Positions 4,240-54,012 of a DNA stretch of 64,000 bases are shown here, piece after piece. The position numbers and the translations under genes were made by a program. The stretch lies in IMG/VR virus record IMGVR_UViG_3300044673_000278, positions 187,694 to 251,693 of that record; one strand, written 5' to 3'. Source of the stretch: a virus. Lineage: Duplodnaviria > Heunggongvirae > Uroviricota > Caudoviricetes. Under the pieces are notes generated by a model, which did no database searches, was not told the origin of the DNA, and saw only the letters and a list, made by a program, of their open reading frames with translations. How positions within the stretch are numbered: position 1 is the stretch's first letter; the number at the start of each line of letters is the position of its first letter.

Positions 4240-4266
4240 ATATAAGGAATAGGAACAGGTACTGAC

Positions 4267-16864: not shown

Positions 16865-17849
16865 AATCCGTTTCATTTACCAGCAAGGCAATTATCCCTG
16901 TTTTATAAACGGGGATATTCAGCGCATTGTTGAATCCTGGTACGACATTGAAGTGTATGATCCTGCCAAAACATACAATCCTCAGGACACTGTGATTCTA
17001 ATAACTCATGTAGAAGAAGTAGAAACAAGAAATAGCACTGGATGGTTTACCCCTTTTGAACAAGCTGGATTTAGAGTGGTAGTAGATCATTTGTGGGATA
17101 GCGATGTTGACACACCCAGCATGATCAAAAATGGTCGTTTAATTCTACGCAACGGTAATTGGGTTTGGTATAGAGAATGTATCAGATTCATTGAGCAAGG
17201 CTATCATACATATGAACCGCAAAGGAATTACAGTCATGCGTTCTTTATGCCCATGCACAAAACACGCTGGCACAGAGATCAAGCACAGGAACGACTGGCG
17301 CCTGTTTTGCAACACGCTTTATGGAGCTATGTTGAAAAAGGCATTCTTGTAGAAGGAGATGTAGATCATTCTACTCCTAGCAATATCTTTTGGGAATTCT
17401 ATGTCAATCCTGAGTGGTACAACAGTACATTTTTCAGTGTGGTATCTGAAAGTTACATGAGATCTGACCGGTGGGTTCAAAGTCCTTTTGTACCTAACTA
17501 TAGAACAGAAGTCAGTGAAAAGTTATTCAAGCCCTGTATGTTTTATCACCCCATGGTAGTGTATGGTTCATTGGGCACACTGGAATATCTGCACCGCGAA
17601 GGTTTTGAAACTTTTAGCAATCTCTGGGACGAAAGTTATGACACTGTGCCCACAGACCAGCAGCGCCACGATGTAGTGACCAAATTGATTCTGGACAATG
17701 TTGATAGATTTTTGCGAGGAGATCTTGGTATAGATTCGCTGACTCAACAAAAGCTCGAACACAATCACGCTAGAATATTTGACCACAACCTAGTGCTGCA
17801 AAGATTTGAACGTGAGATCATTGGTGACCTGCAAAGGTTCTTGGGATGA
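16857..17849 (+). CDS. GT-B-like protein, paralog 2
   Basis: C-terminal FKPCMFYHPMVVYGSLGTLEYLHREGFETFSNLWDESYD motif. First ATG at 16857 overlaps the upstream stop; the ORF-track start at 16845 is a TTG. Confidence 0.5.
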   Translation: MSKIRFIYQQGNYPCFINGDIQRIVESWYDIEVYDPAKTYNPQDTVILITHVEEVETRNSTGWFTPFEQAGFRVVVDHLWDSDVDTPSMIKNGRLILRNGNWVWYRECIRFIEQGYHTYEPQRNYSHAFFMPMHKTRWHRDQAQERLAPVLQHALWSYVEKGILVEGDVDHSTPSNIFWEFYVNPEWYNSTFFSVVSESYMRSDRWVQSPFVPNYRTEVSEKLFKPCMFYHPMVVYGSLGTLEYLHREGFETFSNLWDESYDTVPTDQQRHDVVTKLILDNVDRFLRGDLGIDSLTQQKLEHNHARIFDHNLVLQRFEREIIGDLQRFLG

Positions 17850-18448
17850 AACGAGTCTACGTCTGCGGTGATAGCTTTTGTGTGCCTGATCCTGACTACG
17901 GACCGTGCTGGGTTGATTATTTGGCGCAGCATAGATCTGTACATAATCTGGCACAGGTAGCAGCCACCAATTTAATGATTAGCATGCAAGTGGATCGTGC
18001 CATTGCAGAATCAGCTGATTTTGTTATAGTGCAAGGCACAGCATGCACTCGCAGTCAAACACGATATCAGGGCAAAATTGTACCCTACAGTTACCACACA
18101 GCCAGCGAAACAACCACTCCGTTTGACCGCACCAAACTCAGTGTACTCAAGCACTATTATGTTGAATTTTTTGATTTAGACTTGGCTATCTATGAGAATA
18201 AATGTATAATTGAAAATACCCTGCAGAAATTAGTCGACAGAGGTATTGATTTTTTGTTCGATCAAGGTGGATTCGAACATGCTAGCTTTGGCGGCGCCAC
18301 TGAGTATTTTACACAATACAGTCAATATCGCAGTGCAGTAAATCTGTGGGACCATGCACATACACGAGATTATAGGCCTTACTATCACATTGTAGATGAT
18401 GCTGTGCATCGCTCAGTGGCTGAATATTATACAAGGAAAACACAATGA
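17846..18448 (+). CDS. SGNH/GDSL-family hydrolase-like protein
   Basis: N-terminal VYVCGDSFCVP is a GDSx block I with the nucleophile Ser. 200 aa. Confidence 0.45.
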   Translation: MKRVYVCGDSFCVPDPDYGPCWVDYLAQHRSVHNLAQVAATNLMISMQVDRAIAESADFVIVQGTACTRSQTRYQGKIVPYSYHTASETTTPFDRTKLSVLKHYYVEFFDLDLAIYENKCIIENTLQKLVDRGIDFLFDQGGFEHASFGGATEYFTQYSQYRSAVNLWDHAHTRDYRPYYHIVDDAVHRSVAEYYTRKTQ

Positions 18449-19410
18449 AAAAAATTCTAGTGTGTGGCGCCGGGGGATTTATTGGTACCCATTTGGTTCG
18501 CAGTTTGCGAGCACAAGGCCATTATGTCATAGGTGCAGATCTGCACAGGCCTGAATTTAGTGCCACTGACGCCAACGAATTTCACATTGTGGATCTTCGC
18601 AACCAGCGACAAGTAACACGGCTAATCACAGCAGACATAGACGAAATATATCAGTTGGCAGCAGACATGGGCGGCGCAGGCTATATTTTCACAGGCAACA
18701 ATGATGCTGAAATCATGCACAATTCGGCTATCATTAATTTGAACATCCTACACGAAATGGTGTTTAAGAAAATCGAGAAGATCTTTTACAGTTCCAGTGC
18801 CTGCATTTATCCTGCATACAATCAAGAAGATCCTGACAATCCTGTAATGAGTGAGGAATCGGCCTACCCAGCAGCGCCCGATTCAGAATATGGATGGGAA
18901 AAGTTATTCAGTGAACGGTTGTATGCTACATTTGCTCGCAATCACGGCATAGATGTACGCATTGCAAGATTGCACAATGTATTTGGCCCAGAGTCGGCTT
19001 GGACTGGCGGCAGAGAAAAAGCACCTGCTGCACTGTGTCGCAAGGTAGCGCAGTGCGACAATCAAGGTATTATTGACGTTTGGGGCCCAGGCACACAAAC
19101 TCGTAGTTTCTTATATATAGATGAATGTATAGAAGGTATTCATAGACTTATGGCCAGTGATCATACACAGCCTATCAATATTGGTAGCAAAAGAATGATC
19201 AGCATAAATCAATTGGTGTTTTTAATTGCCGACCTGGCCAACAAGTCAGTGTCTATACGTAACATAGATGGGCCACGTGGCGTAATGGGACGCACCAGCG
19301 ATAATACTTTGATACAACAAGTCCTGGGGTGGGAACCACCGGACAACTTAGAACACGGATTAACGCAACTATACAATTGGATCAGTGAACAAATTTATGC
19401 AAAAGCCTGA
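18445..19410 (+). CDS. GDP-mannose 3,5-epimerase-like NAD-dependent epimerase (extended SDR)
   Basis: GAGGFIGTHL Rossmann motif, YSSSACIYP and a YGWEK catalytic YxxxK. The strings WTGGREKAPAALCRKV and TRSFLYIDECIEG are near-identical to plant GDP-mannose 3,5-epimerase. Confidence 0.75.
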   Translation: MKKILVCGAGGFIGTHLVRSLRAQGHYVIGADLHRPEFSATDANEFHIVDLRNQRQVTRLITADIDEIYQLAADMGGAGYIFTGNNDAEIMHNSAIINLNILHEMVFKKIEKIFYSSSACIYPAYNQEDPDNPVMSEESAYPAAPDSEYGWEKLFSERLYATFARNHGIDVRIARLHNVFGPESAWTGGREKAPAALCRKVAQCDNQGIIDVWGPGTQTRSFLYIDECIEGIHRLMASDHTQPINIGSKRMISINQLVFLIADLANKSVSIRNIDGPRGVMGRTSDNTLIQQVLGWEPPDNLEHGLTQLYNWISEQIYAKA

Positions 19411-20695
19411 CACACTGTGCCTAGCACCTTGGACACACACATATCTCAGTCCACAAACGGAGCGTAGAATGTGCTGTGCCAGTCGCGAGCCAGCACAGAA
19501 TTTTGAACAGTACATTGATACATCTGCTGGCACCGGGCGGTATATTCCGCTGACATTGGAACAGCACTGGAATTCAGAGCACATGCGAAGTGTACGCCGA
19601 AGAATGATGGCCGGAGAAACCTTGCCTGAGTGCGATGTGTGCAACAACAAACTGTTAAATACCTCAGTATATCGAGATTACTTTGGTCACCTCTTTGGAC
19701 ACAAACTAGATGAAGTCTACGCAACAACTACCGCTGACGGTTATACAACCATGGAGCCTGTGTCCTGGGACTATAGGTTCAGTAATCTCTGCAACTTTAA
19801 ATGTAGAACTTGCGGGGACATGCTCAGTTCTGCGTGGGAAAGCGAAGAGAAAACTCATGACATGGTTAATTGGGCAAATCCTAGTAATAACTGGATGCGC
19901 AGTGATGTTAGGCAGCAAATATCACAGTTTCAGGATACACAGATTGAGCAAGAATTCTCTGATGCTGTGGAACAGCATCGAGTAGAAGAAGTCTACTGGG
20001 TAGGCGGCGAACCCTTGATGTATGAACAACATTGGCGTTATATGAAACGCATTGTTGAATTAGGAGACGGAGGACGACTATATGCCAGGTACAACACTAA
20101 TCTCAGCAGGATTAGTTATCGCGGCTGTGACTTATATCGTGATCTGCTGGTACATGTACGCGACTGGCAAATTTGCGCCAGTATTGACGGAACAGGAACA
20201 ATCGGAGAGTACATACGTACTGGTCTGGACTATGGGGTTTTTCTAAAGAACTTCGAAGCTGGTGTGGCCGTACAAAAAAATCGTCGACAGATGAGATTGG
20301 ATTTTACGTTGACGCTGCCGGGCATGTTTGAAGTCAATGCAATACAACAGCTTGCTCGCACATACGATGTAGAGCTATTGGCCAAAGTGATCTTTAGTTT
20401 TACCCCAGATATTGCAATGAGTCCATTGGCTTTGCCCAGGCAGCTATTAGACGACTGGGTTGATGAGTTGGTACCCGAATGTACATCAGGGGCCATGCGC
20501 GATGTTCTACTACAGTTAAAGAATCGTCCTACGTTTGAACAACAATGGCCCGATCAATATCGTGCAGGGCTTGCAAAAGGCAAAGCTCGTGTGTTAAAAT
20601 TAGAAAGCATACGCACACAGTCAATAACCATGGGGGAAATATTGGCTCAGCGTCCAGAAGTATTGAAATGGTGGAACGAAATTGAACCCAATTGA
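19385..20695 (+). CDS. Radical SAM enzyme, paralog 5
   Basis: CNFKCRTCGD and GGEPL motifs. N-terminal CLAPWTHTYLSPQTERRMCC...CDVCNNK. Confidence 0.7.
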   Translation: MNKFMQKPDTLCLAPWTHTYLSPQTERRMCCASREPAQNFEQYIDTSAGTGRYIPLTLEQHWNSEHMRSVRRRMMAGETLPECDVCNNKLLNTSVYRDYFGHLFGHKLDEVYATTTADGYTTMEPVSWDYRFSNLCNFKCRTCGDMLSSAWESEEKTHDMVNWANPSNNWMRSDVRQQISQFQDTQIEQEFSDAVEQHRVEEVYWVGGEPLMYEQHWRYMKRIVELGDGGRLYARYNTNLSRISYRGCDLYRDLLVHVRDWQICASIDGTGTIGEYIRTGLDYGVFLKNFEAGVAVQKNRRQMRLDFTLTLPGMFEVNAIQQLARTYDVELLAKVIFSFTPDIAMSPLALPRQLLDDWVDELVPECTSGAMRDVLLQLKNRPTFEQQWPDQYRAGLAKGKARVLKLESIRTQSITMGEILAQRPEVLKWWNEIEPN

Positions 20696-21728
20696 AATGG
20701 ATCTCCGATCGGAGTCGGGCAATATATTAACTGTTTACATAGATGTAGCACACAACAGTCTAAGCCGCAAATGGGTCACAGCACTAAAGGAGTTAGTGGA
20801 AAATGATTACCATTTGGAAAAGAATTATTGCTGGTTTGGCTGGACTCAAAGCCGACGCAACGCCGAATACCTATGCGGATCCATTAACAGTAGTATCAAT
20901 GCTATTAATAGAGCTAACCTGGGTTATCGCATTGATTGCCCTAGTTACACAGTTTCTAACACAATAAAAGATGACTTGGATATCAATCATGAGCGCATGA
21001 ATTGGTTGCATCGATATTTTGAAGATCTGCAGGGTGTGTCGGGTAGAATGAGTCCCTACTACGAAGCAGCTGATGCAGAAACACGCTGGCATATACGCCA
21101 ACTCAATTTGTTGTGCCATGAATACGAAAGCCTGGTGCTGAGCATGCGCAAAGACGTACAGGCACCTGAGTGGAAAAGACCCAGTCAGCTGATGTGCTGG
21201 TTGCATGCACCGCGCTTTGAGTTGGATGAAGAAGACCACGAACTGTTTGGTATTGAAACCATTAATCGCAGCCTGGGTGGTGTGTATGTGGGGGTAAACA
21301 AAGCAGTAGGTAAACATCACTGGGAAGTATTCAATGATGAAGGTCGAGACAGTCGCATTGATGAACTAGTGACTACCACACTCAAAACTCAAACTGAAGC
21401 AGCAGGGGACTTTGACATTGAATGGGCTCGTGATCCGGGTGCATATCATTGGCAACAAGTAAAATTGCGAGAATTTCGCCAATGGCTGCTGGACAACGGT
21501 TTTGATCCCGACGACAAAAGTCTAACCATTGGACACCCCAAGGTTGCGCAGGTAGATCTTTTACGCAGTTTTGGCACAGAAGACTACCAACAAATCTGGA
21601 GCTTGTTGGCACAACACCTAGATGTATATAAAATCCGTGTAGACGGCTGCGAAGCTACATACAACTATAACTGGAGTGATCCAGATTATATGCAGCAGCA
21701 AGTGGCTGCAATCAAACAAGGAAAATAA
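20682..21728 (+). CDS. Hypothetical protein (348 aa)
   Basis: ORF with overlapping start inside the island. No recognisable motif. Confidence 0.45.
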   Translation: MNPIEMDLRSESGNILTVYIDVAHNSLSRKWVTALKELVENDYHLEKNYCWFGWTQSRRNAEYLCGSINSSINAINRANLGYRIDCPSYTVSNTIKDDLDINHERMNWLHRYFEDLQGVSGRMSPYYEAADAETRWHIRQLNLLCHEYESLVLSMRKDVQAPEWKRPSQLMCWLHAPRFELDEEDHELFGIETINRSLGGVYVGVNKAVGKHHWEVFNDEGRDSRIDELVTTTLKTQTEAAGDFDIEWARDPGAYHWQQVKLREFRQWLLDNGFDPDDKSLTIGHPKVAQVDLLRSFGTEDYQQIWSLLAQHLDVYKIRVDGCEATYNYNWSDPDYMQQQVAAIKQGK

Positions 21729-21827
21729 CATGGGCTGGATTCGAAGAATGATTGAGCGAATTCGTTTAGAAATTCGCTATCGTAAAAAACTCAAAGAACT
21801 GCGCAAGCGTGATCCATTCATTTACAA

Positions 21828-23306
21828 ATGAACATTCTTGGTATTTCAGCAGGATTTCATGATGCTGCCATTGCTGTACTCAGTGACTCTGGCGAAATAA
21901 GATTTGCCAGCCACAGCGAACGCTATAGCAAAAACAAGCATGACACAGACCTATGTGATGCTATCCTAGATGACATTGATCAGTACACCATAGGGCAGAT
22001 TGCATACTACGAACGTCCTTGGGCACGACAGTTGCGACAGCTATGGGCTGGTCAAGGCGTAGACTGGAATCAACTCACTGTGAAAGAAATTGTGCGCCAG
22101 CAAACTGGCTCAAGATTTCGCGGTGTAAAAGCTCGCGGATACAATCATCATCTATGCCATGCAGCCGCAGGGTTTCAAACATCGCCTTATAATCGTGCCA
22201 CAGTTGTTGTAATCGATGCCATTGGCGAATGGGACACAATAACAATATGGGGAGCAGAATATGATTCAAAAGGTCGTGCGCAGTATAAAAAACTTTGGAG
22301 TCGCGGTTACCCGCATTCAATTGGACTCTTCTACAGTGCAGCTACTAGCCGCGTTGGCCTACGCCCACTAGACGAAGAATACATACTCATGGGCATGGCC
22401 GCCTATGGTGAACGTGGATTCGGCAGTCTCATGCGTCAAGACCTTGTGGCTGATGCTTGGGAAATTGAGTTCAAGCAAAACCTGCACATGGGACTGGAGC
22501 AGAAGTATCTCAGTTATGTGGCGGACATGGACATTGCCGCTGGCGCACAAGATTTAGCCGAAGATCTCATCATGAATGTCATGCGTAGAGCTCGAGCATT
22601 TGGCTGGAGCAACAACCTTGTGTACATGGGCGGTGTTGCACTGAATTGCAGTGCCAATAGGAGGTTAGGTGAGTGTTTTGATAACATATGGATTATGCCT
22701 TGTCCTGGTGATGCTGGCTCTAGCCTGGGCGCCGCCGCACTGGCTTACGGTAGTAGGATTAATTGGCACGATGCTTTTCTGGGCCATGATATTAGAGGCC
22801 CTTACCCTGTTAATGCCATTCTGGACGAGCTTGTGTCTAATCGTATCGTTGGTGTTGCTAGTGGCCGTGCTGAGTTCGGTCCGCGAGCGTTAGGCAACAG
22901 AAGTTTATTAGCGGACCCTAGAGGTCCAGAAATCAAGGATCAAGTAAATGCAATCAAACGTAGACAAAAATTCCGACCCTTTGCCCCAGTTATTTTGGAG
23001 GAACTGGTTGATCATTACTTTGACATGCCTCGCAATTGGGATCGTAGTAGGTATATGCAAGTCGTCGCTACTTGTAGGCGTCCTGACTTATTTCCTGCTA
23101 TCGTTCACGCTGACGGGACTAGTCGTGTACAGACTGTGCCAAAAGATGGATCGGGAATACGAGAACTGCTTGAAAAATGGTATGTAATGACTGACTGCCC
23201 CATGCTGCTGAACACCAGCTTGAACATACGCGGTGAGCCTATGGTCAATGATCGATTAGACGCAGATAGATTTGAAAAGTTATACGGTGTACGAGTATGC
23301 AGTTAA
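21828..23306 (+). CDS. Carbamoyltransferase (NodU/CmcH/TobZ family)
   Basis: N-terminal MNILGISAGFHDAAIAVL is the Kae1/YgjD-like ASKHA motif of O-carbamoyltransferases. 492 aa. Confidence 0.7.
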   Translation: MNILGISAGFHDAAIAVLSDSGEIRFASHSERYSKNKHDTDLCDAILDDIDQYTIGQIAYYERPWARQLRQLWAGQGVDWNQLTVKEIVRQQTGSRFRGVKARGYNHHLCHAAAGFQTSPYNRATVVVIDAIGEWDTITIWGAEYDSKGRAQYKKLWSRGYPHSIGLFYSAATSRVGLRPLDEEYILMGMAAYGERGFGSLMRQDLVADAWEIEFKQNLHMGLEQKYLSYVADMDIAAGAQDLAEDLIMNVMRRARAFGWSNNLVYMGGVALNCSANRRLGECFDNIWIMPCPGDAGSSLGAAALAYGSRINWHDAFLGHDIRGPYPVNAILDELVSNRIVGVASGRAEFGPRALGNRSLLADPRGPEIKDQVNAIKRRQKFRPFAPVILEELVDHYFDMPRNWDRSRYMQVVATCRRPDLFPAIVHADGTSRVQTVPKDGSGIRELLEKWYVMTDCPMLLNTSLNIRGEPMVNDRLDADRFEKLYGVRVCS

Positions 23307-23309
23307 AAC

Positions 23310-23336
23310 AAAAGCCCCGACAGGGGCTTTGTTGTT
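23310..23336. terminator. Bidirectional intrinsic terminator between convergent genes
   Basis: Hairpin aaagccccgacaggggcttt flanked by A-rich and T-rich tracts. Confidence 0.6.
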
Positions 23337-24385
23337 TATAGATAAGTTTCTAAACCTCCACGACGACGGATATCCTGTGTGCAACAAGATATACCGCCGT
23401 CCCAGAAGTAGCTGTGACGCAACTCACTTATAATCGGATTGATCCGATGCTGCTTACAGTAATCAAACACCTGCTTGTTGTAGGCGCTGAAGATTACATT
23501 CTCTTCGTCTAGCACAAGACAGTTTACATCAAACACTGTCTCAGCCACAAATCCTGTCCATTTGGTTAGATATGTGTTCACAAAGTCTGTGAACTCTGGG
23601 GTAGGAGTTTGACCTTGCACATACCATGCACCGGGGCTGGATTCATATTTGAACTTGCCCACTTCCATGGCAGCCCAGATTGAACTATCCCAAATCTTGC
23701 ACACATCCCAGCCCGGGAAATCCTTGGCCAAGTCCAAGTTAACATCGTGCTTGCTACTGAGCAGCACGCCGGGCTTGAGTATGGCAAACACAGCATCACC
23801 GTGGCCGTCTGTGACAGCTTCGTGTATGCGATATTCCGGACCCAGCACATTGTCTACAATCCAACGTGTCTGCTCGGGCTTTAGGAAATCCGAATTGTCA
23901 AAAAACACATCACGGCCCACACGCACAATGCAACTGGCGCTGGCACCATTTAGGATACAATCAGGATCCCATTGGCTGCGATGTGGATTGACCACTGTGG
24001 CACCTTGACCAGCATAGTCATTGCAAATAGTGTCTAGTTCGGGCATGTTGAGCACACGCAACAGTTTGTCACCCAGTGTAATTTGCCAGTCACGTGGAGT
24101 CAGTGGGGGCAACGGCGCACCGCCACCTTCGGTTTGAAACCATACAAATTGATCTTTGTTGGGCAAATCAGGTCTACGAACAGTGGCACCGTAGCGTTGA
24201 ATAGTCTTGGCCAAGTTGTCAAGGTCTTCTTCGGTTTCTGCTAGGATCTGTTGCAGTTGGTTACGCACCTGCGGATTGTCGATGAAATCAAAATAATCAG
24301 GTGAGTAGGCGCGGCCTACAATTACTTCTTCCAGTGGTTGCCACGATGTATAACTGTTAACGATATTGCTCATGTATTTTCTCAA
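23336..24385 (-). CDS. Pentein-fold amidinotransferase/DDAH-like enzyme
   Basis: C-terminal FWDGGISCCTQDIRRRG resembles the catalytic-Cys motif (GGGxHCxT) of the amidinotransferase/arginine-deiminase superfamily. TDGHGD is a candidate His/Asp site. Confidence 0.45.
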   Translation of the reverse strand: MRKYMSNIVNSYTSWQPLEEVIVGRAYSPDYFDFIDNPQVRNQLQQILAETEEDLDNLAKTIQRYGATVRRPDLPNKDQFVWFQTEGGGAPLPPLTPRDWQITLGDKLLRVLNMPELDTICNDYAGQGATVVNPHRSQWDPDCILNGASASCIVRVGRDVFFDNSDFLKPEQTRWIVDNVLGPEYRIHEAVTDGHGDAVFAILKPGVLLSSKHDVNLDLAKDFPGWDVCKIWDSSIWAAMEVGKFKYESSPGAWYVQGQTPTPEFTDFVNTYLTKWTGFVAETVFDVNCLVLDEENVIFSAYNKQVFDYCKQHRINPIISELRHSYFWDGGISCCTQDIRRRGGLETYL

Positions 24386-25547
24386 TCAAGCTATTTAAAC
24401 GTTGACTCTTGTTGGCCTGAAATAATTGCTGGTTGTGTTCAATATCTCCACGGGCCTGCTCAAACAGCTCAGGAAGATTTCTACTGGCAGCAACTATGCT
24501 TTCTTTGAGAGCTTGCCAACGTTGTGTATGATTTGTGATAGCATCATATCTGTTGTCCAACACATTATCAAATGTTCTGTAACCCAAATCTCTTAGTGCC
24601 TGCAAACTGCCAGTAGCCCCAGCCACAAAGAACAGTTGTCCGTGCTTGATGGCTTTGAATGTTTTTTCTGTGACAAAAGCGCCGCCGCTTTGATCTACAT
24701 CAAATTGACTTTCCAACACAATTTGACAGTAGCTGTCGTTGTAAAACTTGGGCTCCATCACTGAGTGATTGTTGCGATCGCTGTCAGACAGATCATCGCA
24801 ATAGTAAGGAGCGTTCTGCAAGAATCTTGATCTATCGTAACGCAGACGTTGGATCAAATCAACTTCAATAGGGCAATCATTGTCTTCCCCCGTGGCTGCT
24901 TCACAATAACTCCAGTAACTGTGATCTAACACACCAGTGCGCCATAAGTCAGCCATCACAGTGGCACGCCACCATTTGTGTAGTCTGCTGAGACAAGTAA
25001 ATTGTTTGCTTCTAGGCAGTTGATGCACTGGCATAGGCTCAACATCAATGTTTCTTTGATAATACCAAAGCTCAAAATCGTCAAAATGCACAAAGCCATT
25101 GAGCTTGGCAGCAGCGGTGTTGGCACTGACAAACACGTAACACTGCGGTGGCAGCTCATGATCCAACAACAATTTGTCAATTCTTTGTTTGATTCTACCA
25201 GGGTTGTCACCTTCGTGATAGTAGAACAACAAACGTAGACGCTGCTGTTTCACTGCACGAGTCACGTCCTTGGGCAACAAGGAAATATAATCAATTGAAA
25301 AATCAAAGAATCCCAAGCCAATGGGGTACAGTGAATCAGCAGGAAAATTGTCGTTGATATTGAATATGTTGACTGCTACTCCGTGCTGATTGCAGTATTC
25401 TTGTAACCTCAGCGGTACTGTATAAGGCCAATGCTGACCAAATTCTCTCCAGGGTTGAGTGTATGGCCTGGCCTCGTGCTTGGTCAGCGCAGGGTATATT
25501 CTGCCTTTGAGAACTTGATCTGCAATTAGATTAAGGCTCAATTTCAT
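24357..25547 (-). CDS. GT-B-like protein, paralog 3
   Basis: C-terminal TEKTFKAIKHGQLFFVAGATGSLQALRDLGYRTFDNVLDNRYD motif. Confidence 0.5.
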   Translation of the reverse strand: MKLSLNLIADQVLKGRIYPALTKHEARPYTQPWREFGQHWPYTVPLRLQEYCNQHGVAVNIFNINDNFPADSLYPIGLGFFDFSIDYISLLPKDVTRAVKQQRLRLLFYYHEGDNPGRIKQRIDKLLLDHELPPQCYVFVSANTAAAKLNGFVHFDDFELWYYQRNIDVEPMPVHQLPRSKQFTCLSRLHKWWRATVMADLWRTGVLDHSYWSYCEAATGEDNDCPIEVDLIQRLRYDRSRFLQNAPYYCDDLSDSDRNNHSVMEPKFYNDSYCQIVLESQFDVDQSGGAFVTEKTFKAIKHGQLFFVAGATGSLQALRDLGYRTFDNVLDNRYDAITNHTQRWQALKESIVAASRNLPELFEQARGDIEHNQQLFQANKSQRLNSLIEKIHEQYR

Positions 25548-26661
25548 TCAGCATCTCAATGAGTTCTTTCCACAGCACTTTTTCAAATCCGCCATTGTAA
25601 AAATGGTTCCAATTGTGCTCAATTACTTCGCGACACTGATCAAACAACTGTTGTTTGGCTTCTACACTCAGTTGATCTAGACTGCGCAACAAACTAGCAA
25701 TGCGTTCTATGCGAACATCGTCCTCGGCATCGTCGTAACTTTCGTCCCATATGCCCTCAAAGGTTCGAAACCCGTATTCTCTGAGATATTTCAAACTGCC
25801 CTTGGTCCCAACAATAATAAATGGCATGCCCATGGCAATAGGTTTGAAAGTTTTTTCTGTGAGGTGCAATCTTTTTCCTGTGGCCACAGTTTCTGTCACA
25901 AGATACAACAAACTTTCAGCAGCTTCGTCAAACAGACTCAACCAGCAACTGTGCATGGGATGATCAGTTTCGCCGGCAAAATTGATTGGTAATTGTTGAG
26001 ATCCGAATACTTGCTCAATATCAGGATACTTGTTTTTTAATAATTTTACAGCATCAATGATATTGATATTCTCTGCTGGGCACACATCGGGGCAACTGAT
26101 GTGGTTGTCTAGCATGTTGTTTTTAAAGATATGGTACAACATTTCTAATCTATGTTGACGTTCGCCAGCAATGATTCTGTTTGGAGCAAGAAAAGTTTTG
26201 GTAATAGTTCGTTCAGTCCACGGCTTTATCAAAAACGTTTTGTCGTACCCGCGATACCAATCTAACGCAGCCCAGCCGTGAAAGAAATAGTACAAAGATT
26301 TCCACTTGAACCTAGAACATACGTATTCAACACTGACACTGTTTTTCTCACTGGTCATAACATATCCAGCATTTTTTATACGATTGGTATCAAAATTTTC
26401 AATTCGGTTATCGGTGTGAGTGATATCTAAGTTTAACCCTGCAACTTGGCTAAACGTAGGAAGATGAATGTTCAAATGTATTGGCTCTTGATCAAAAAAG
26501 AATATATAATTGTGTTCAGGGATGTCGTCTCTACCGTAGTTCATAACACTTTCGGGATCACTTCTGCCAAAAGGCTCACAGAAAAATGCTCTGTACCCGG
26601 GCCTATTCTTTTTTAACCAAGGCCAAAATGTATTGTTGTAGAGTTCGTCGATTCTAATCAT
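25531..26661 (-). CDS. GT-B-like protein, paralog 4
   Basis: C-terminal TEKTFKPIAMGMPFIIVGTKGSLKYLREYGFRTFEGIWDESYD motif. Confidence 0.5.
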   Translation of the reverse strand: MIRIDELYNNTFWPWLKKNRPGYRAFFCEPFGRSDPESVMNYGRDDIPEHNYIFFFDQEPIHLNIHLPTFSQVAGLNLDITHTDNRIENFDTNRIKNAGYVMTSEKNSVSVEYVCSRFKWKSLYYFFHGWAALDWYRGYDKTFLIKPWTERTITKTFLAPNRIIAGERQHRLEMLYHIFKNNMLDNHISCPDVCPAENINIIDAVKLLKNKYPDIEQVFGSQQLPINFAGETDHPMHSCWLSLFDEAAESLLYLVTETVATGKRLHLTEKTFKPIAMGMPFIIVGTKGSLKYLREYGFRTFEGIWDESYDDAEDDVRIERIASLLRSLDQLSVEAKQQLFDQCREVIEHNWNHFYNGGFEKVLWKELIEMLNEIEP

Positions 26662-29600
26662 GTTTGATGTTTTTTATATAGGAACTAAACCAAATCTATT
26701 GCCGCATGAACAATCTGCGGATAGCATTGAACATGCTCAAAGTTTGTGTCGTACAAGATTTTGTTGGATTGTATCGTACTTAGCGGATCTCGACGGTTGG
26801 GATTTTCTTTGGGAACCTGTGCCTTGGCAAGCCAATTTTGTTCATGTTTGGCCCAGCGAAGTAGAAGGATATGCTGCGGTACAACTAGTACCAAAAAACG
26901 TTGTCACTTTGGAGTATCACTATCACAACACAGTGGTGCCATCCAAGTCAAGACCAGAAAACTATTGCACACTGGTTGACTCAGAGTTTGACTATAATTG
27001 GTTGCCAAGCCCGTGGGATCCTCCTTACATTTATGTGTTTGGTAATCAGCATTGGCCTGCAGAAGTGCAGCCCACAGTGGAATATCATGTGCCTGGTGCT
27101 ACAGAACGCAAATACATGGAGTGGCCTGTGGCACAGTTAAAGCCGTGTCGTAACAACTGGCTATTGAACGAAAACATCGATGAAGAATCTTGGGATTGGT
27201 CTTGGCGGCCAGACCCAGGAGATCCACCTTACATCTATGTGTTTGGCAATCAATGGAACCCTCCTGAATACAAAACCAGTGTGGAATATCATGTGCCTGG
27301 TGCTACAGAACGCAAATACATGGGCGCTCGCACACAGCGTTTGCCCAACTATGGCAACAATTGGCGTGTGCTGCTCAGCGTCGAAGAGTTTGATTATAGC
27401 TGGGAACCAAATCCATTTGATCCTCCTTATATCTATGTGTTTGGCAATCAGTGGTATTCAGCAGAAGTTGAACCCACAGTGGAATACCACGTACCGGGTG
27501 CCACAGAACGCAAGTATGTTCATGATATTGCGGCCCGAGTTCAAGCCAACTCATTGAACTACTATCAACACTGTGCTGTGGAGTCGTTTGATTACTCATG
27601 GCATCCTGATCCCGGTGAGCCACCTTACATCTATGTGTTTGGAAATCAGTGGTATCCAGCAGAGATCATGCCCACAGTGGAATATCGTGTGCCAGGCGCC
27701 ACTGAGCGGAAGTACATGGATGCTCCGCGGGCAACATTGCCCCAGCGACACGACAATCGTTGGCATACCTTAGAAGATTGCGAGTGGGATTACAGTTGGG
27801 TACCCGATCCGGGAGATCCTCCTTACATCTATGTGTTTGGCAATCAGTGGTGGCCAGCAGAAAAATGGCCCACTGTAACATATACAGTGCCCGGTGCCAC
27901 AGAGCGCAAATACATGCAAGAGCCTGTGGCCAAGCTGTTGTCTAACACACAAAATTGGATCAGTTTGACAGATCGTCAGTTTGCATTTGACTACTCGTGG
28001 CAACCTGATCCTGGCGATTCACCTTACCGTTATGTGTTTGGTAACCAATGGCATAGTGCTGAAGTCATGCCCACAGTACAATGGCTACATCCAAATGCTG
28101 ACAAGAACACACCTATAAAATACATAGACTGGCCACGTGCAGAGTTACTGCCTGACTCAACCCTCTGGACACTGCCAGCAGGTGTAAATCCTGCCAGTGT
28201 AGACTTCTCCTGGGTACCAGATCCTGGCGAACCTCCCTACATATATCAATTTGCCACACAGCACCAGAAAACTGGTGGACCTGTGTACACAGTGCCCGGC
28301 GCCACTGAGATCAAATACCTTGAACACGTAGAGGTAAAAGTCGAAGCCGAAACTGTGCCCATTGTGGAAATTGATCACTTGGACGGCAATGCTGGACAGA
28401 TAGCCAATGTTGTCAAACGTGTGCGTTATTTTGACAACTACAGAGACACACTGATTCGCATTGCCAAGAGCCTTGTGGGTCAGCATGAGTTTGTGTGGGT
28501 ATGTTCCAGCATCTGTGATTACACAGGTTTTGACTTTACCTGGCATCCTGAGAAATGGCAAAACACCATGCTGCATGTATTTGCCAGCAATGATCAAAAG
28601 TTCGGCGACACATTCTACATGCATGTGCCTACCTTTGCTGAACGTGCTGAGAAGAAAGCACTGTTGGAATGGTATGCTGTGAATTATGTGCCGCGCAAGT
28701 CAGTGCCTCGCAGACCCATGCCAGTGATTGAACACACTGCTGATTCACATGTGGATGCTGTGAAGAACACAGACTGGGCAGGACCCGTGGCATTGTTCTC
28801 TACCAACGGTGTTCCTTTTACCTTGCCCACTGTCCCTCTTTGGCGTGAAGAAGTCAAAACAATTGTGCCACTCAGTGCTGGTGCCAGTGCAGTGATTGTG
28901 CCCAAGGTGGCCAAGGGCAGTGTCAAAACACAGTTGTACGACTATCCTTACATAGACAAAACACAAAGCAAGCGACACGGCGATCAACCGCTGGACATTG
29001 TGTTTATCAGTAACGGAGAAGCCAGTGCTGACAAAAACTATCGTCGACTAGAAGACAGCAAGTACAATCGCAACAATCGTCTAATGAGAGTTGACCGTGT
29101 AAATGGTCGTGCAGCAGCTTATCATGCCGCTGCTCGGGTCAGCACCACACCATGGTTCTTTGCTGTGTTTGCTAAGTTAGATGTTCGTATGGATTTTCCC
29201 TGGGATTGGCAACCTGATCGCATGCAACAGCCCAAGCACTATATCTTTCATGCGTTCAACCCTGTCACTGGATTGGAATATGGGCACCAAGCCATGATTG
29301 CCTACAACCGAGATCTAGTGTTGAACAACCCAGGCGTGGGCCTTGACTTTACGCTAGACAGCGCACACGAAGTTGTACCCATCAACTCAGGTACAGCATG
29401 GTACACAGACACACCGTGGCAAGCTTGGCGCACAGCGTTTAGAGAAGCAATCAAATTATGTGCCAGCATGCCCGATGTTGAAAGCGAATACAGACTCAAC
29501 GCCTGGCTCAACAACGGCGACGGATGGAATGGTGATTGGAGTCGACATGGTGCTGCTGATGGCGTTGAATACTATCAGCAGGTCAATGGAGATTTTGCAG

Positions 29601-29674
29601 AATTGAGGAAAAGCTACGAGTGGGACTGGCTGGCCAGTTATGCATTTATAAAAAGAGGGCTAACCAATGACTAA
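26660..29674 (+). CDS. 1004-aa protein with ~8 tandem ~75-aa repeats and a C-terminal GT-A-like domain
   Basis: Repeat unit: DYxWxPDPGDPPYIYVFGNQWxxAExxPTVEYHVPGATERKYM. C-terminal ~300 aa homologous to ORF 9261-10184 (QAWRTAFREAIKLC). Confidence 0.65.
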   Translation: MFDVFYIGTKPNLLPHEQSADSIEHAQSLCRTRFCWIVSYLADLDGWDFLWEPVPWQANFVHVWPSEVEGYAAVQLVPKNVVTLEYHYHNTVVPSKSRPENYCTLVDSEFDYNWLPSPWDPPYIYVFGNQHWPAEVQPTVEYHVPGATERKYMEWPVAQLKPCRNNWLLNENIDEESWDWSWRPDPGDPPYIYVFGNQWNPPEYKTSVEYHVPGATERKYMGARTQRLPNYGNNWRVLLSVEEFDYSWEPNPFDPPYIYVFGNQWYSAEVEPTVEYHVPGATERKYVHDIAARVQANSLNYYQHCAVESFDYSWHPDPGEPPYIYVFGNQWYPAEIMPTVEYRVPGATERKYMDAPRATLPQRHDNRWHTLEDCEWDYSWVPDPGDPPYIYVFGNQWWPAEKWPTVTYTVPGATERKYMQEPVAKLLSNTQNWISLTDRQFAFDYSWQPDPGDSPYRYVFGNQWHSAEVMPTVQWLHPNADKNTPIKYIDWPRAELLPDSTLWTLPAGVNPASVDFSWVPDPGEPPYIYQFATQHQKTGGPVYTVPGATEIKYLEHVEVKVEAETVPIVEIDHLDGNAGQIANVVKRVRYFDNYRDTLIRIAKSLVGQHEFVWVCSSICDYTGFDFTWHPEKWQNTMLHVFASNDQKFGDTFYMHVPTFAERAEKKALLEWYAVNYVPRKSVPRRPMPVIEHTADSHVDAVKNTDWAGPVALFSTNGVPFTLPTVPLWREEVKTIVPLSAGASAVIVPKVAKGSVKTQLYDYPYIDKTQSKRHGDQPLDIVFISNGEASADKNYRRLEDSKYNRNNRLMRVDRVNGRAAAYHAAARVSTTPWFFAVFAKLDVRMDFPWDWQPDRMQQPKHYIFHAFNPVTGLEYGHQAMIAYNRDLVLNNPGVGLDFTLDSAHEVVPINSGTAWYTDTPWQAWRTAFREAIKLCASMPDVESEYRLNAWLNNGDGWNGDWSRHGAADGVEYYQQVNGDFAELRKSYEWDWLASYAFIKRGLTND

Positions 29675-38702: not shown

Positions 38703-38726
38703 GTCAGTCCTTTGTGTCAATGTGTT

Positions 38727-38755
38727 ATTATAGCACAATGCGAATTATTGATCAA
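38727..38755 (-). promoter_or_regulatory. Sigma70-type promoter P1: TTGATC-17-TATAAT with upstream TG
   Basis: Minus-strand reading ttgatcaataattcgcattgtgcTATAAT. Confidence 0.6.

Positions 38756-53936: not shown

Positions 53937-54012
<76 letters not shown>

What the first reader, a model, noticed from the sequence alone, without database searches (positions are those of the whole stretch)
21828..24385. Convergent carbamoyltransferase and amidinotransferase-like genes sharing a bidirectional terminator
A NodU/CmcH-type O-carbamoyltransferase and a pentein-fold enzyme (FWDGGISCCTQDIRRRG) point to carbamoyl and amidino/guanidino decoration. This is aminoglycoside-like chemistry, unexpected in a phage.
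Basis: partly seen in the sequence, partly recalled or inferred. Interest (0 to 1): 0.6.

Follow-up and report, generated by a model that had tools for sequence, protein, structure and literature searches.

The report
Phage sugar-tailoring pair: carbamoyltransferase plus amidinotransferase
Two real enzyme genes, one adding carbamoyl groups and one moving amidino groups, sit tail to tail inside a large, fast-changing sugar-decoration gene island of an uncultured giant phage; the same enzyme combination recurs in unrelated phages, but nobody knows what it makes.

Summary
ORF 21828-23306 (+) is a two-domain NodU/CmcH/TobZ-type carbamoyltransferase. ORF 23336-24373/24385 (-) is a pentein-fold protein whose only solved sequence relatives are amidinotransferases (AGAT, StrB1, HsvA, SxtG). 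A perfect 8-bp hairpin with A and T tracts fills the 29-bp gap.

The catalytic Cys, the His and two guanidino-binding Asp are invariant or nearly so. The third triad residue (AGAT Asp254) is Ser here and varies across the subfamily.

The pair lies in a ~22-kb island of a jumbo phage with five N-twitch radical SAM genes, four GT-B-like genes, two sugar-nucleotide SDRs and a DegT aminotransferase. Across the 73 related viral loci that hold both genes, the amidinotransferase is the best-conserved enzyme (82-92% identity). The junction with the carbamoyltransferase is an insertion hotspot, and only two of those loci keep the hairpin.

Most likely both enzymes tailor a phage-made glycan: amine to guanidino, hydroxyl to carbamate. 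This is inferred, not shown.

It is not unprecedented. Amidinotransferase plus radical SAM plus glycosyltransferase modules were noted in Campylobacter phages (2010) and in a cyanophage (2025), without a known function. There is no evidence for an aminocyclitol antibiotic pathway.

The parts
21828..23306 (+). O-carbamoyltransferase of the NodU/CmcH/TobZ family (492 aa). It has a Kae1-like N domain with HHLCH (22146-22160) and GDAGSS (22707-22724), and a YrdC-like C domain with GPRALGNRS (22878-22904), FRPFAP (22971-22988) and NTSLN (23211-23225).
   Evidence: Pfam PF02543 1.9e-35 and PF16861 6.3e-47. phrog_1601 1.3e-87. PDB: NovN 2.8e-48, GdmN 3.7e-40, TobZ 8e-33, with the motifs aligned. Motif coordinates.
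23311..23330 (.). Perfect 8-bp GC-rich hairpin (AAAGCCCC GACA GGGGCTTT) with an A-tract upstream and a T-rich tract downstream. It has the form of a bidirectional intrinsic terminator and sits in the 29-bp gap between the two stop codons.
   Evidence: Equivalent hairpins with slightly different stems occur at the same site only in L005 and L020.
23336..24373 (-). Amidinotransferase-like pentein-fold enzyme (345 aa from the ATG at 24373; an alternative TTG at 24385 gives 349 aa). Key codons: Cys330 23384-23386, His191 23801-23803, Asp193 23795-23797, Asp95 24089-24091. Ser145 (23939-23941) sits at the position of AGAT Asp254.
   Evidence: phmmer against PDB: AGAT 4e-16, StrB1 6e-14, HsvA 2e-13, SxtG 6e-11. 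Profile against PDB. AF2 model and Foldseek. Column conservation. Codon coordinates. No Pfam hit.
24357..25547 (-). GT-B-fold glycosyltransferase-like protein 'GTa' (396 aa). Its stop overlaps the amidinotransferase start by 17 nt, so the two are probably co-translated.
   Evidence: No Pfam or PDB sequence hit. The AF2 model (pLDDT 83.2) matches only GT-B glycosyltransferases (SdgB 1.2e-4, SenB, OtsA, OGT/SPY) at low TM-scores of 0.3-0.4.
25531..26661 (-). 'GTb' (376 aa), a paralog of GTa and the first gene of the minus-strand GTb-GTa-amidinotransferase operon.
   Evidence: 36% identity to GTa over the C-terminal ~110 aa. Conserved synteny.
21730..21831 (+). Conserved 33-aa micropeptide gene (MGWIRRMIERIRLEIRYRKKLKELRKRDPFIYK). 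Its TGA stop overlaps the ATG of the carbamoyltransferase (ATGA).
   Evidence: Found in 72 of the 84 loci then held. Residues 13-33 are nearly invariant while synonymous codons vary freely. The C-terminal 18 aa are encoded in at least 120 IMG/VR contigs.
20682..21728 (+). Conserved protein of unknown function (348 aa). It always precedes the micropeptide, upstream of the carbamoyltransferase.
   Evidence: No Pfam, NCBIfam, PHROG or PDB hit. Homologs in the related loci show 39-75% identity. The 120 best of 4,821 database homologs carry no Pfam domain.
19385..20695 (+). N-terminal-twitch radical SAM protein (rSAM4).
   Evidence: NF033640, 271.6 bits against a cutoff of 170.
18445..19410 (+). 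NAD-dependent sugar-nucleotide epimerase/reductase (SDR1).
   Evidence: PF01370 5.6e-42. Best NCBIfam match is GDP-L-fucose synthase-like, below its cutoff.
9983..16864 (+). Four further N-twitch radical SAM genes (9983-11563, 12646-13971, 13953-15650, 15647-16864) and one protein carrying the GT-like C-domain (11538-12659).
   Evidence: NF033640 scores of 309, 288, 390 and 347 bits against a cutoff of 170. Paralogy of 11538-12659 with GTa/GTb.
16845..17849 (+). Fourth protein sharing the GT-like C-terminal domain with GTa/GTb.
   Evidence: tblastn paralogy, 27-33% identity over ~120 aa.
26660..29674 (+). 1004-aa protein with seven ~66-aa tandem repeats and a C-terminal domain of unknown function. 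It is transcribed divergently from the GTb operon.
   Evidence: No Pfam or PDB hit. Only the C-terminal domain has a homolog, in phage RsoM2USA.
30292..31407 (-). DegT/DnrJ/EryC1/StrS-family PLP sugar aminotransferase.
   Evidence: PF01041 1.3e-61. Best NCBIfam matches are PseC and dTDP-4-amino-4,6-dideoxygalactose transaminase, both below cutoff.
31352..32323 (-). NDP-hexose 4,6-dehydratase-like SDR (SDR2).
   Evidence: PF01370 4.6e-43 and PF16363 5.4e-33. Best NCBIfam match is dTDP-glucose 4,6-dehydratase at 130 bits, below its cutoff.

Best explanation
The two genes are tailoring enzymes of a phage-encoded sugar (glycan) pathway carried by an uncultured jumbo-phage clade.

Shown: one gene is an intact two-domain TobZ/NovN-type carbamoyltransferase. 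The other belongs to a divergent, almost exclusively viral branch of the L-arginine amidinotransferases. It keeps the nucleophilic Cys, the catalytic His and both guanidinium-binding Asp.

Inferred mechanism:
1. SDR2 (4,6-dehydratase-like) and the DegT aminotransferase turn an NDP-hexose into an NDP-amino-deoxyhexose.
2. The amidinotransferase takes the amidino group of L-arginine onto Cys330 as a covalent thiouronium intermediate, releasing ornithine. It then passes the group to the sugar's primary amine, giving a guanidino sugar.
3. The carbamoyltransferase makes carbamoyl-AMP from carbamoyl phosphate and ATP and O-carbamoylates a sugar hydroxyl.
4. The four GT-B-like proteins assemble the glycan. 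The five N-twitch radical SAM enzymes, together with the methyltransferases and other genes that come and go at the junction, diversify it.

The acceptor of the finished glycan (virion protein, host envelope or something else) is unknown. The hairpin between the genes is a local bidirectional terminator present in only a few genomes.
For: Enzyme identity: carbamoyltransferase; amidinotransferase.

Active site: Cys330 50/50, Asp193 50/50, His191 49/50 and Asp95 49/50 across relatives of 27-94% identity.

Strong constraint: in the 73 IMG/VR loci that hold both genes, the amidinotransferase is 82-92% identical to the window's, the carbamoyltransferase 61-85%, and GTa, GTb and DegT mostly 27-76%.

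Operon structure: GTb, GTa and the amidinotransferase overlap one another, and GTa has a GT-B fold.

Sugar-nucleotide enzymes in the island.

Genes inserted at the junction are glycan-tailoring types: FkbM/RfbT-like and class I methyltransferases, GT25, an APS-kinase/cytidylyltransferase protein, and more radical SAM/SPASM genes.

The same combination recurs independently:
- CP220: four radical SAM genes, the amidinotransferase, a fifth radical SAM gene, then two GT-A genes (PMC2853527).
- S-SCSM2R ORF301-310: GT, GT25, GT, DegT-like aminotransferase, radical SAM, GT, 2OG oxygenase, amidinotransferase, GT2. ORF266, of the window's subfamily, lies next to KdsA/KdsB and a GT.
- AG-345-D19: amidinotransferase, carbamoyltransferase and radical SAM genes within 8 kb.
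- MAG contigs where distant amidinotransferases sit in arrays of N-twitch radical SAM genes or between GT-like genes.
Against: No substrate, product or activity was tested; the acceptor is pure inference.

The residue equivalent to AGAT's triad Asp254 is Ser and is not conserved, so catalysis may differ or be weaker.

The protein has no Pfam hit.

The GT-B assignment rests on Foldseek E~1e-4 with low TM-scores of 0.3-0.4.

Nine cluster genes are orphans whose roles could change the picture.

SPASM/twitch radical SAM arrays and a highly conserved 33-aa peptide are also typical of peptide-modifying (RiPP) systems.

Adjacency of the carbamoyltransferase and the amidinotransferase is often broken by insertions, so they need not act on the same molecule.

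No nucleotidyltransferase that would activate the sugar was found in the window.
Confidence: 0.5

Rival explanations
1. Small-molecule metabolism. The amidinotransferase works on its own on a free metabolite: glycine to guanidinoacetate as AGAT does, lysine to homoarginine, or polyamines as HsvA does. It would be an auxiliary metabolic gene unrelated to its neighbours.
For: The closest solved relatives act on small molecules (glycine, polyamines, inosamine phosphate, the saxitoxin precursor). Databases already label relatives 'glycine amidinotransferase'. Some distant homologs lie among unrelated small phage genes (L085, L093, L096, L099).
Against: The gene overlaps the two GT-like genes upstream of it. 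The association with radical SAM and GT genes recurs in at least four unrelated lineages. No guanidinoacetate methyltransferase or polyamine gene is conserved beside it.
Confidence: 0.12
2. An aminoglycoside- or aminocyclitol-like secondary metabolite. The island would be a phage-borne biosynthetic gene cluster for a diffusible guanidino- and carbamoyl-decorated pseudo-oligosaccharide. This is the first reader's reading and that of the S-SCSM2R authors ('antibiotic synthesis genes').
For: The gene families match streptomycin, butirosin and tobramycin pathways: a StrB1-type amidinotransferase, a StrS/DegT aminotransferase, a twitch radical SAM (from my own knowledge, BtrN is one), a TobZ-type carbamoyltransferase, and glycosyltransferases. 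PMC12801897 proposes this reading.
Against: None of the ORFs scanned gave a hit to an inositol-phosphate synthase, a 2-deoxy-scyllo-inosose synthase, a resistance gene or an exporter. Having four or more GTs, with constant gain and loss of tailoring genes among close relatives, looks like O-antigen or capsule-type diversification. A lytic jumbo phage has little time to profit from an antibiotic.
Confidence: 0.1
3. DNA hypermodification. The glycosyltransferases, the carbamoyltransferase and the amidinotransferase would decorate bases of the phage genome to evade restriction.
For: ThyX lies at the edge of the island and travels with it in relatives. Phage GT plus epimerase pairs are known to glycosylate 5hmC in DNA (10.1101/2023.12.21.572611). 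From my own knowledge, not checked here, a 5hmC carbamoyltransferase from viromes has been described. CP220-type phages have fully modified DNA.
Against: No dCMP/dUMP hydroxymethylase, TET/5mYOX enzyme, C5-methyltransferase, DpdA or hmdU kinase was found in the 64-kb window. ThyX makes ordinary dTMP. An amidinotransferase needs a primary amine acceptor. CP220's modification (7-amido-7-deazaguanine) is explained by other genes.
Confidence: 0.1
4. Peptide or protein modification (RiPP-like). The N-twitch/SPASM radical SAM enzymes would modify a peptide such as the 33-aa micropeptide, or the repeat protein. The amidinotransferase would convert Lys or Orn side chains to homoarginine or arginine, and the carbamoyltransferase would cap a side chain.
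For: SPASM/twitch radical SAM enzymes are classically peptide maturases; weak NCBIfam hits to sactipeptide maturase appear. A 33-aa ORF with a nearly invariant, Lys/Arg/Tyr-rich C-terminus lies in the operon. A seven-repeat protein lies in the island. S-SCSM2R ORF266 was found in the virion proteome (PMC12801897).
Against: The micropeptide has no Cys, and its pattern (variable N-terminus, invariant C-terminus) is the reverse of the usual leader/core layout. It is absent from the distant loci that still pair the amidinotransferase with radical SAM genes. A sugar-nucleotide dehydratase, aminotransferase, epimerase and many GTs are hard to place in a RiPP pathway.
Confidence: 0.08
5. Inactive or repurposed pentein protein: a pseudo-enzyme or binding protein, because the triad Asp is missing.
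For: Ser145 replaces AGAT Asp254 and the column is variable. In this clade His-Cys has become Ser-Cys just before the nucleophile. There is no Pfam match.
Against: Cys330, His191, Asp193 and Asp95 are invariant or nearly so over 50 sequences, down to 27% identity. It is the most conserved enzyme of the island. A pseudo-enzyme would not need to keep the nucleophile.
Confidence: 0.05

Closest known systems
L-arginine amidinotransferases of the pentein (guanidino-group-modifying) superfamily: human AGAT (1JDW), StrB1 (1BWD), HsvA (5WPI), SxtG (6U1R)
   Same: Same fold (Foldseek E 5e-22 to 3.5e-21, TM 0.65-0.68). These are the only PDB families found by the profile (E 2e-35 to 3e-31). The nucleophilic Cys in the C-terminal ...GGxxC.T.D..R motif, the catalytic His, and the two Asp equivalent to AGAT Asp170 and Asp305 are all conserved.
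   Different: Only 18-22% identity. No Pfam PF02274 hit. The triad Asp254 position is Ser and variable. The subfamily has its own invariant motifs: R-H-x-x-F-W-D-G-G before the Cys, and W-x-G-x-x-x-E-T-x-F-D-V-N. It is shorter than AGAT (345 aa against 386-423 aa). Among 185,579 species genomes it is found only in 15 MAG loci and in no isolate; otherwise it occurs in viral contigs.
The 'radical SAM + putative glycine amidinotransferase' interchangeable module of Campylobacter phages CP220/CPt10 (Timms et al. 2010, PMC2853527)
   Same: An amidinotransferase embedded among about five radical SAM genes with adjacent glycosyltransferases. It is the most variable region between related phages and lies next to virion structural genes (searches compared).
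   Different: The CP220 amidinotransferase is of the classical type; it was reached only through S-SCSM2R ORF309, not with the window protein. Its radical SAM genes are not detectably of the window's N-twitch family. Its GTs are GT-A rather than GT-B-like. It has no carbamoyltransferase, DegT or SDR genes.
Cyanophage S-SCSM2R ORF266 ('glycine amidinotransferase') and the ORF301-310 operon (PMC12801897)
   Same: ORF266 is the closest annotated relative in a cultured phage: 28% identity, with the same WDGG-x-C and ET-x-FDVN motifs. It lies next to KdsA/KdsB and a GT. ORF309 sits in a GT / DegT-like / radical SAM / GT25 / GT2 operon that mirrors the window's gene mix.
   Different: A T4-like cyanophage rather than this jumbo clade. 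Its carbamoyltransferase is 21 kb away. The authors interpret the genes as antibiotic synthesis genes and report ORF266 in the virion proteome. No biochemistry has been done.
TobZ / NovN / GdmN O-carbamoyltransferases (NodU/CmcH family), and the 'Nol-like carbamoyltransferases' of cyanophages and pelagiphages
   Same: The same two-domain architecture with conserved HxxxH, GPRALGNRS, FRPFAP and NTS-N motifs. The family is common in marine phages (136 records; phrog_1601).
   Different: Shorter (492 aa against 576-702 aa). Not a NodU ortholog (127.8 bits against a cutoff of 1000). Best phage relatives are jumbo phage RsoM2USA (44.5%) and marine virus AG-345-D19 (49%), not cyanophages (26-30%). 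The substrate is unknown.

Membership tests
Amidinotransferase family (AGAT/StrB1 type, pentein superfamily) | Pentein beta/alpha-propeller fold, closer to amidinotransferases than to ADI, DDAH or agmatine deiminase | tested here: met
   AF2 model has pLDDT 87.7 and pTM 0.90. Foldseek against PDB: amidinotransferases at E 5e-22 to 3.5e-21; DDAH, ADI and agmatine deiminase at E 3e-9 to 3e-7.
Amidinotransferase family (AGAT/StrB1 type, pentein superfamily) | Significant sequence homology to characterised amidinotransferases | tested here: met
   phmmer: AGAT 4.3e-16, StrB1 6.4e-14, HsvA 1.7e-13, SxtG 6.1e-11. With the profile: 1.9e-35 to 3.4e-31, and nothing else in the PDB.
Amidinotransferase family (AGAT/StrB1 type, pentein superfamily) | Nucleophilic Cys (AGAT Cys407) near the C-terminus | tested here: met
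   Cys330 (codon 23384-23386) aligns with Cys407 and is invariant in 50/50 sequences. The triad is defined in PMC3684758.
Amidinotransferase family (AGAT/StrB1 type, pentein superfamily) | Catalytic His (AGAT His303) | tested here: met
   His191 aligns with His303 and is present in 49/50 sequences.
Amidinotransferase family (AGAT/StrB1 type, pentein superfamily) | Third triad residue Asp (AGAT Asp254) | tested here: not met
   The aligned residue is Ser145. The column reads S10, D7, N6, A5, T4, E3... among 50 relatives.
Amidinotransferase family (AGAT/StrB1 type, pentein superfamily) | Two acidic residues that hold the guanidinium group (AGAT Asp170 and Asp305; their roles are from my knowledge of Humm et al. 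1997) | tested here: met
   Asp95 (in P-R-D) is present in 49/50 and Asp193 (in H-x-D) in 50/50 sequences, aligned to the AGAT PRD and HID motifs.
Amidinotransferase family (AGAT/StrB1 type, pentein superfamily) | Match to the Pfam model PF02274 (ADI/Amidinotransf) | tested here: not met
   No hit for the window protein even at E<=1. Only 9 of 50 relatives hit weakly, best at 1e-4.
Amidinotransferase family (AGAT/StrB1 type, pentein superfamily) | Arginine-dependent amidino transfer through a covalent enzyme intermediate | not testable with these tools
   Needs an enzyme assay.
NodU/CmcH/TobZ O-carbamoyltransferases | Two-domain architecture: Kae1-like Carbam_trans_N plus YrdC-like Carbam_trans_C | tested here: met
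   PF02543 covers profile positions 2-345 of 346. PF16861 covers 3-151 of 170.
NodU/CmcH/TobZ O-carbamoyltransferases | Conserved metal/nucleotide motifs (HxxxH, GDAGSS, GPRALGNRS, FRPFAP, NTS-N; their roles are from my knowledge of the TobZ structure paper) | tested here: met
   The motifs are present and aligned to NovN.
NodU/CmcH/TobZ O-carbamoyltransferases | Orthology to NodU proper (NCBIfam equivalog NF041651) | tested here: not met
   127.8 bits against a cutoff of 1000, and only a partial match. It is a family member, not a NodU ortholog.
Bidirectional intrinsic terminator | GC-rich hairpin with a U-tract downstream on both strands, placed between convergent stop codons | tested here: met
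   MFE z-score -2.3.
Bidirectional intrinsic terminator | Conservation of the element in relatives | tested here: inconclusive
   Present only where the gap is 25-29 bp: the window, L005 and L020, with one compensatory stem change in L020. Absent from all the other related loci that hold both genes.
Phage 'radical SAM + amidinotransferase (+GT)' variable module (CP220/CPt10 type) | An amidinotransferase clustered with several radical SAM genes and glycosyltransferases, hypervariable between related phages | tested here: met
   Five NF033640 radical SAM genes. GT-B-like genes. Variable content. CP220 layout.
Phage 'radical SAM + amidinotransferase (+GT)' variable module (CP220/CPt10 type) | Homology of the module's radical SAM genes to those of CP220 | tested here: inconclusive
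   tblastn with a window radical SAM protein finds no Campylobacter phage at E<=1e-5. No profile comparison was done.
Aminocyclitol/aminoglycoside biosynthetic gene cluster (streptomycin type) | A cyclitol-forming enzyme (inositol-phosphate synthase or 2-deoxy-scyllo-inosose synthase) | tested here: not met
   No such Pfam or NCBIfam hit in any ORF scanned. Orphan ORFs remain.

The most novel reading that the evidence does not exclude
The amidinotransferase, N-twitch radical SAM and glycosyltransferase module, here with a carbamoyltransferase and a 33-aa micropeptide more conserved than any enzyme in the island, is a virus-specific biosynthetic system. It would make a cationic guanidino- and carbamoyl-decorated sugar product of a kind not yet described in any virus. 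The product could be displayed on the virion as a diversifying coat, or released as an aminoglycoside-like compound. The Asp-less amidinotransferase subfamily would be its signature enzyme.
Probability: 0.15. Interest if true: 0.85.

Novelty: new variant of a known kind. Interest (0 to 1): 0.5.

Why it matters
If the inference is right, large phages make guanidino- and carbamoyl-bearing sugars. That chemistry is otherwise known mainly from aminoglycoside antibiotics and a few toxins.

The island behaves like an O-antigen locus: a stable core with tailoring genes constantly swapped. That implies diversifying selection on something exposed, such as a virion coat, a modified host surface, or another molecule seen by defences or grazers.

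The same enzyme combination has been noted without explanation since 2010 in Campylobacter phages considered for biocontrol, and since 2025 in a broad-host-range cyanophage. This clade supplies what an experiment needs: hundreds of natural variants, a sharply conserved marker enzyme, and defined candidate substrates (SDR2 plus DegT products). That makes the old question testable.

The subfamily is invisible to Pfam. Current AMG surveys therefore either miss it or label it 'glycine amidinotransferase / creatine synthesis', which is probably misleading.

Tried and rejected
- Megablast of 18-30 kb of the window against 50,697 phage genomes found nothing.
- Pfam, NCBIfam and PADLOC-independent scans of the amidinotransferase gave no family. 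PHROGs gave only phrog_25854, of unknown function.
- phmmer of GTa, u20682 and the 1004-aa repeat protein against the PDB gave only chance hits.
- I considered DNA hypermodification. No hydroxymethylase, TET, methyltransferase or DpdA gene turned up in the window, so I ranked it low.
- I considered creatine/guanidinoacetate metabolism, following the ocean-AMG paper. That paper concerns GAMT, not this gene.
- I looked for a second amidinotransferase copy in the window; there is none.
- I tried to inspect the 3D active site for a substitute triad acid, but model coordinates are not exposed.
- I tried to search for homologs of the 33-aa peptide, but the query was too short. I used a degenerate DNA pattern instead.
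- The 'moraphage' paper on large aquatic phages mentions only generic glycosyltransferases. Whether that lineage is this clade was not established.
- The host is not established. The only hint is an 84%-identical, fully syntenic 148-kb contig binned into a Haliscomenobacter MAG. Binning is weak evidence.

Full report
**1. The observation**

The ORF listing shows a 492-aa ORF at 21828-23306 (+) and a 349-aa ORF at 23336-24385 (-), converging on a 29-bp gap. The quoted motif FWDGGISCCTQDIRRRG is in the second ORF.

The gap contains AAAGCCCC-GACA-GGGGCTTT (23311-23330), flanked by an A-tract and a T-rich tract. The terminator scan calls it on both strands. The local fold is more stable than shuffles (z = -2.3).

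The minus-strand gene most likely starts at the ATG at 24373 (345 aa), for two reasons. Its many relatives are 339-347 aa and begin MSNIV.... The TTG at 24385 lies inside the end of the upstream gene. I number residues from that ATG below.

**2. What the two proteins are**

The plus-strand protein is a full-length two-domain carbamoyltransferase:
- Carbam_trans_N 1.9e-35 and Carbam_trans_C 6.3e-47.
- phrog_1601 'Nol-like carbamoyltransferase' 1.3e-87.
- Its closest solved relatives are O-carbamoyltransferases of natural-product and sugar hydroxyls: NovN 2.8e-48, GdmN 3.7e-40, TobZ 8e-33.
- The HHLCH, GPRALGNRS, FRPFAP and NTSLN motifs align to NovN.
- It is not a NodU ortholog (127.8 bits against a cutoff of 1000).

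The minus-strand protein has no Pfam or NCBIfam hit, but the homology is clear:
- phmmer against the PDB finds only amidinotransferases: AGAT 4e-16, StrB1 6e-14, HsvA 2e-13, SxtG 6e-11.
- A profile of 50 diverse relatives raises this to 2e-35 to 3e-31, again with nothing else.
- An AlphaFold2 model (pLDDT 87.7, pTM 0.90) matches the same four enzymes at E about 1e-21 to 1e-22. DDAH, arginine deiminase and agmatine deiminase follow at about 1e-8 to 1e-9.

So the pentein fold and the amidinotransferase branch are both confirmed.

**3. Catalytic residues**

The AGAT triad is Asp254-His303-Cys407 (PMC3684758). In the 50-sequence alignment, whose members are 27-94% identical to the query:
- Cys330 (= Cys407) is present in 50/50.
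- His191 (= His303) is present in 49/50.
- Asp193 (= AGAT Asp305) is present in 50/50.
- Asp95 in a P-R-D motif (= AGAT Asp170) is present in 49/50.

The residue aligned with Asp254 is Ser145, and that column is variable (S10, D7, N6, A5, T4, E3...). The subfamily also has invariant motifs of its own: R-H-x-x-F-W-D-G-G before the Cys, and W-x-G-x-x-x-E-T-x-F-D-V-N.

The enzyme therefore keeps the nucleophile, the base and the guanidinium clamp, but lacks the classical third triad residue at the homologous position.

**4. What the window is**

Several features point to a jumbo phage:
- It carries virion-protein domains at 37-6060, ThyX, and a T4-type RNA ligase.
- It has a MoxR-like ATPase 51% identical to that of PA5oct-type jumbo phages.
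- It has 33 tRNA genes at 53.6-63.1 kb.
- It has no nucleotide-level match among 50,697 phage genomes.
- Relatives abound in metagenomes: 1,660 database proteins at E<=1e-5, and 147 confirmed IMG/VR stretches on contigs up to 364 kb.

This is an uncultured jumbo-phage clade.

**5. The neighbourhood**

From about 9.9 to 32.3 kb the window holds:
- five N-terminal-twitch radical SAM genes, all above the curated NF033640 cutoff;
- four paralogous proteins sharing a C-terminal domain (11538, 16845, GTa 24357-25547, GTb 25531-26661). The GTa model matches only GT-B glycosyltransferases, at E 1e-4 and with low TM-scores;
- two sugar-nucleotide SDRs, one most like dTDP-glucose 4,6-dehydratase;
- a DegT/StrS-family aminotransferase most like PseC or the 4-amino-4,6-dideoxyhexose transaminases;
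- a 1004-aa protein with seven 66-aa repeats;
- several orphans.

GTb, GTa and the amidinotransferase overlap one another (17 nt each), which suggests a translationally coupled operon.

**6. Comparative genomics**

In the 73 related IMG/VR loci that hold both genes, the order is conserved: ThyX, SDR2, DegT, repeat protein, GTb, GTa and the amidinotransferase, facing the carbamoyltransferase, u20682, rSAM4 and the other radical SAM genes.

The amidinotransferase is the best-conserved enzyme at 82-92% identity. The carbamoyltransferase is 61-85% identical, and GTa, GTb and DegT mostly 27-76%.

The junction between the two focal genes is an insertion hotspot. The gap ranges from -4 bp (overlapping stop codons, 11 loci) to 4.6 kb. 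The inserted genes are:
- more radical SAM/SPASM genes;
- FkbM/RfbT-like and class I methyltransferases;
- a GT25 gene and an APS-kinase/cytidylyltransferase protein;
- by eye only, SGNH-like and sulfotransferase-like proteins.

The hairpin exists only where the gap is 25-29 bp: the window, L005 and L020, with one compensatory stem change in L020. It is probably a real terminator, but a local one.

**7. Distribution of the subfamily**

An exhaustive search of 1.84 billion cluster representatives finds only 711 at E<=1e-3. The window's clade forms a single 50% cluster, and the next relatives are at most 41% identical.

Among 185,579 species genomes only 15 loci match, all in MAGs and none in an isolate. 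One is a fully syntenic 148-kb contig binned with Haliscomenobacter.

BFVD holds three viral proteins with this fold, one of them from Campylobacter phage CP20. Only 4 of 50,697 phage records match by tblastn. The subfamily is therefore essentially viral and mostly uncultured.

**8. A recurring module**

Distant homologs (28-31% identity) on unrelated contigs also sit among N-twitch radical SAM arrays (L094, L095, L097, L101, L092; L094 has at least seven) or between GT-like genes (L091). Some have cupin/Asp-Asn hydroxylase-like neighbours and a weak Kdo-hydroxylase-like neighbour.

- Marine virus AG-345-D19 has amidinotransferase, carbamoyltransferase and radical SAM genes within 8 kb.
- A Rhodospirillaceae-MAG contig has amidinotransferase, ThyX and carbamoyltransferase genes.
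- In cultured cyanophage S-SCSM2R, ORF266 (the window's subfamily) lies beside KdsA/KdsB and a GT. ORF309 (classical type; hhalign probability 99.6%) sits in a GT / GT25 / DegT-like / radical SAM / GT2 operon. The authors found ORF266 in the virion proteome and called the genes 'antibiotic synthesis genes' (PMC12801897).
- In Campylobacter phages CP220/CPt10, Timms et al. (2010) described an interchangeable module of five radical SAM genes plus a putative glycine amidinotransferase (PMC2853527). The record shows two GT-A genes and a PAP2 phosphatase next to it, just after baseplate genes.

The combination of amidinotransferase, radical SAM and GT genes is thus a recurrent phage module that has been noticed before but never explained.

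**9. Interpretation**

The best-supported reading (confidence about 0.5) is that both enzymes tailor a phage-encoded glycan. The amidinotransferase would convert a sugar amine, plausibly supplied by SDR2 and DegT, to a guanidino group using L-arginine through a Cys330 thiouronium intermediate. The carbamoyltransferase would O-carbamoylate a hydroxyl.

The family assignments are shown. The substrates, the coupling of the two enzymes and the final acceptor are inferred.

The rivals are: free-metabolite amidination (0.12), an aminoglycoside-like metabolite (0.10), DNA hypermodification (0.10), RiPP-like peptide modification (0.08) and a pseudo-enzyme (0.05). Each is set out with its evidence in the rivals section.

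**10. An unexpected extra**

A 33-aa ORF at 21730-21831 (MGWIRRMIERIRLEIRYRKKLKELRKRDPFIYK) has a stop codon that overlaps the carbamoyltransferase start.
- It is present in 72 of the 84 loci held at that point.
- Its last 21 residues are almost invariant while synonymous codons vary freely, which shows selection at the protein level.
- The C-terminal 18 aa are encoded in at least 120 viral contigs.
- It is more conserved than any enzyme in the island.
- Its function is unknown. It keeps the RiPP-like rival alive.

**11. Verdict**

The enzymes are real and probably active. The context is a hypervariable glycan-type island rather than an aminocyclitol antibiotic pathway. The shared terminator is incidental.

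Novelty: a divergent, virus-restricted variant of a known enzyme family, inside a module that has been seen before but whose function remains unsolved. Interest is moderate (0.5). It would be high if the product proves to be a new guanidino- and carbamoyl-bearing sugar made by viruses.

Noticed in passing
window 21730-21831 (+): A 33-aa micropeptide gene (MGWIRRMIERIRLEIRYRKKLKELRKRDPFIYK) lies between u20682 and the carbamoyltransferase, with an ATGA stop/start overlap. Residues 13-33 are almost invariant in 57 distinct nucleotide versions while synonymous codons vary freely. The C-terminal 18 aa are encoded in at least 120 IMG/VR contigs. It is more conserved than any enzyme in the island, and its function is unknown.
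   Followed up: partly
window 53644-63067 (-): An array of 33 tRNA genes, all on the minus strand, interspersed with small ORFs and a homing/HNH endonuclease gene (57425-58186). This is typical of jumbo phages.
   Followed up: no
window 26660-29674 (+): A 1004-aa protein with seven tandem ~66-aa repeats (FDYSWxPDPGDPPYIYVFGNQWxPAExxPTVEYxVPGATERKYM). It has no Pfam or PDB match. The repeat number differs between relatives (801 aa in L001). Only the C-terminal ~220 aa has a homolog, in Ralstonia jumbo phage RsoM2USA.
   Followed up: partly
window 23306/23336 junction, and loci L005-L084: The convergent junction is a recombination or insertion hotspot. Between close relatives, 0 to 4.6 kb of different tailoring genes are inserted: radical SAM, FkbM and class I methyltransferases, GT25, and an APS-kinase/cytidylyltransferase protein.
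   Followed up: yes
L094 (Pseudobdellovibrionaceae MAG contig JAYVPG010000050.1), also L095 and L097: Arrays of N-twitch radical SAM paralogs (seven ORFs in the 17 kb of L094) surround a distant amidinotransferase homolog, with a cupin/Asp-Asn hydroxylase-like protein nearby. These 'bacterial' MAG contigs may be mis-binned viral DNA.
   Followed up: partly
L088, L091, L093 (Haliscomenobacter sp. MAG EUL_031): One MAG carries three different amidinotransferase-like genes on three contigs. One is a 148-kb contig fully syntenic with the window (84% identity). This is either a host hint or a binning artefact. Marine virus AG-345-D19 likewise has three copies on three contigs.
   Followed up: no
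window 37425-38738 (-) and 40845-41930 (-): A MoxR-like AAA ATPase (51% identical to that of PA5oct-type jumbo phages) lies near a DUF2201 metallopeptidase-like/VWA protein, a pair of unknown role in phages. A TctC-like periplasmic binding protein lies at 43406-44314.
   Followed up: no
window 23387-23389 (Ser329, just before the catalytic Cys): In this clade only, the His that precedes the nucleophilic Cys is replaced by Ser. The other 43 of the 50 aligned relatives and AGAT have H-C, and this clade has S-C. The consequence is unknown.
   Followed up: no
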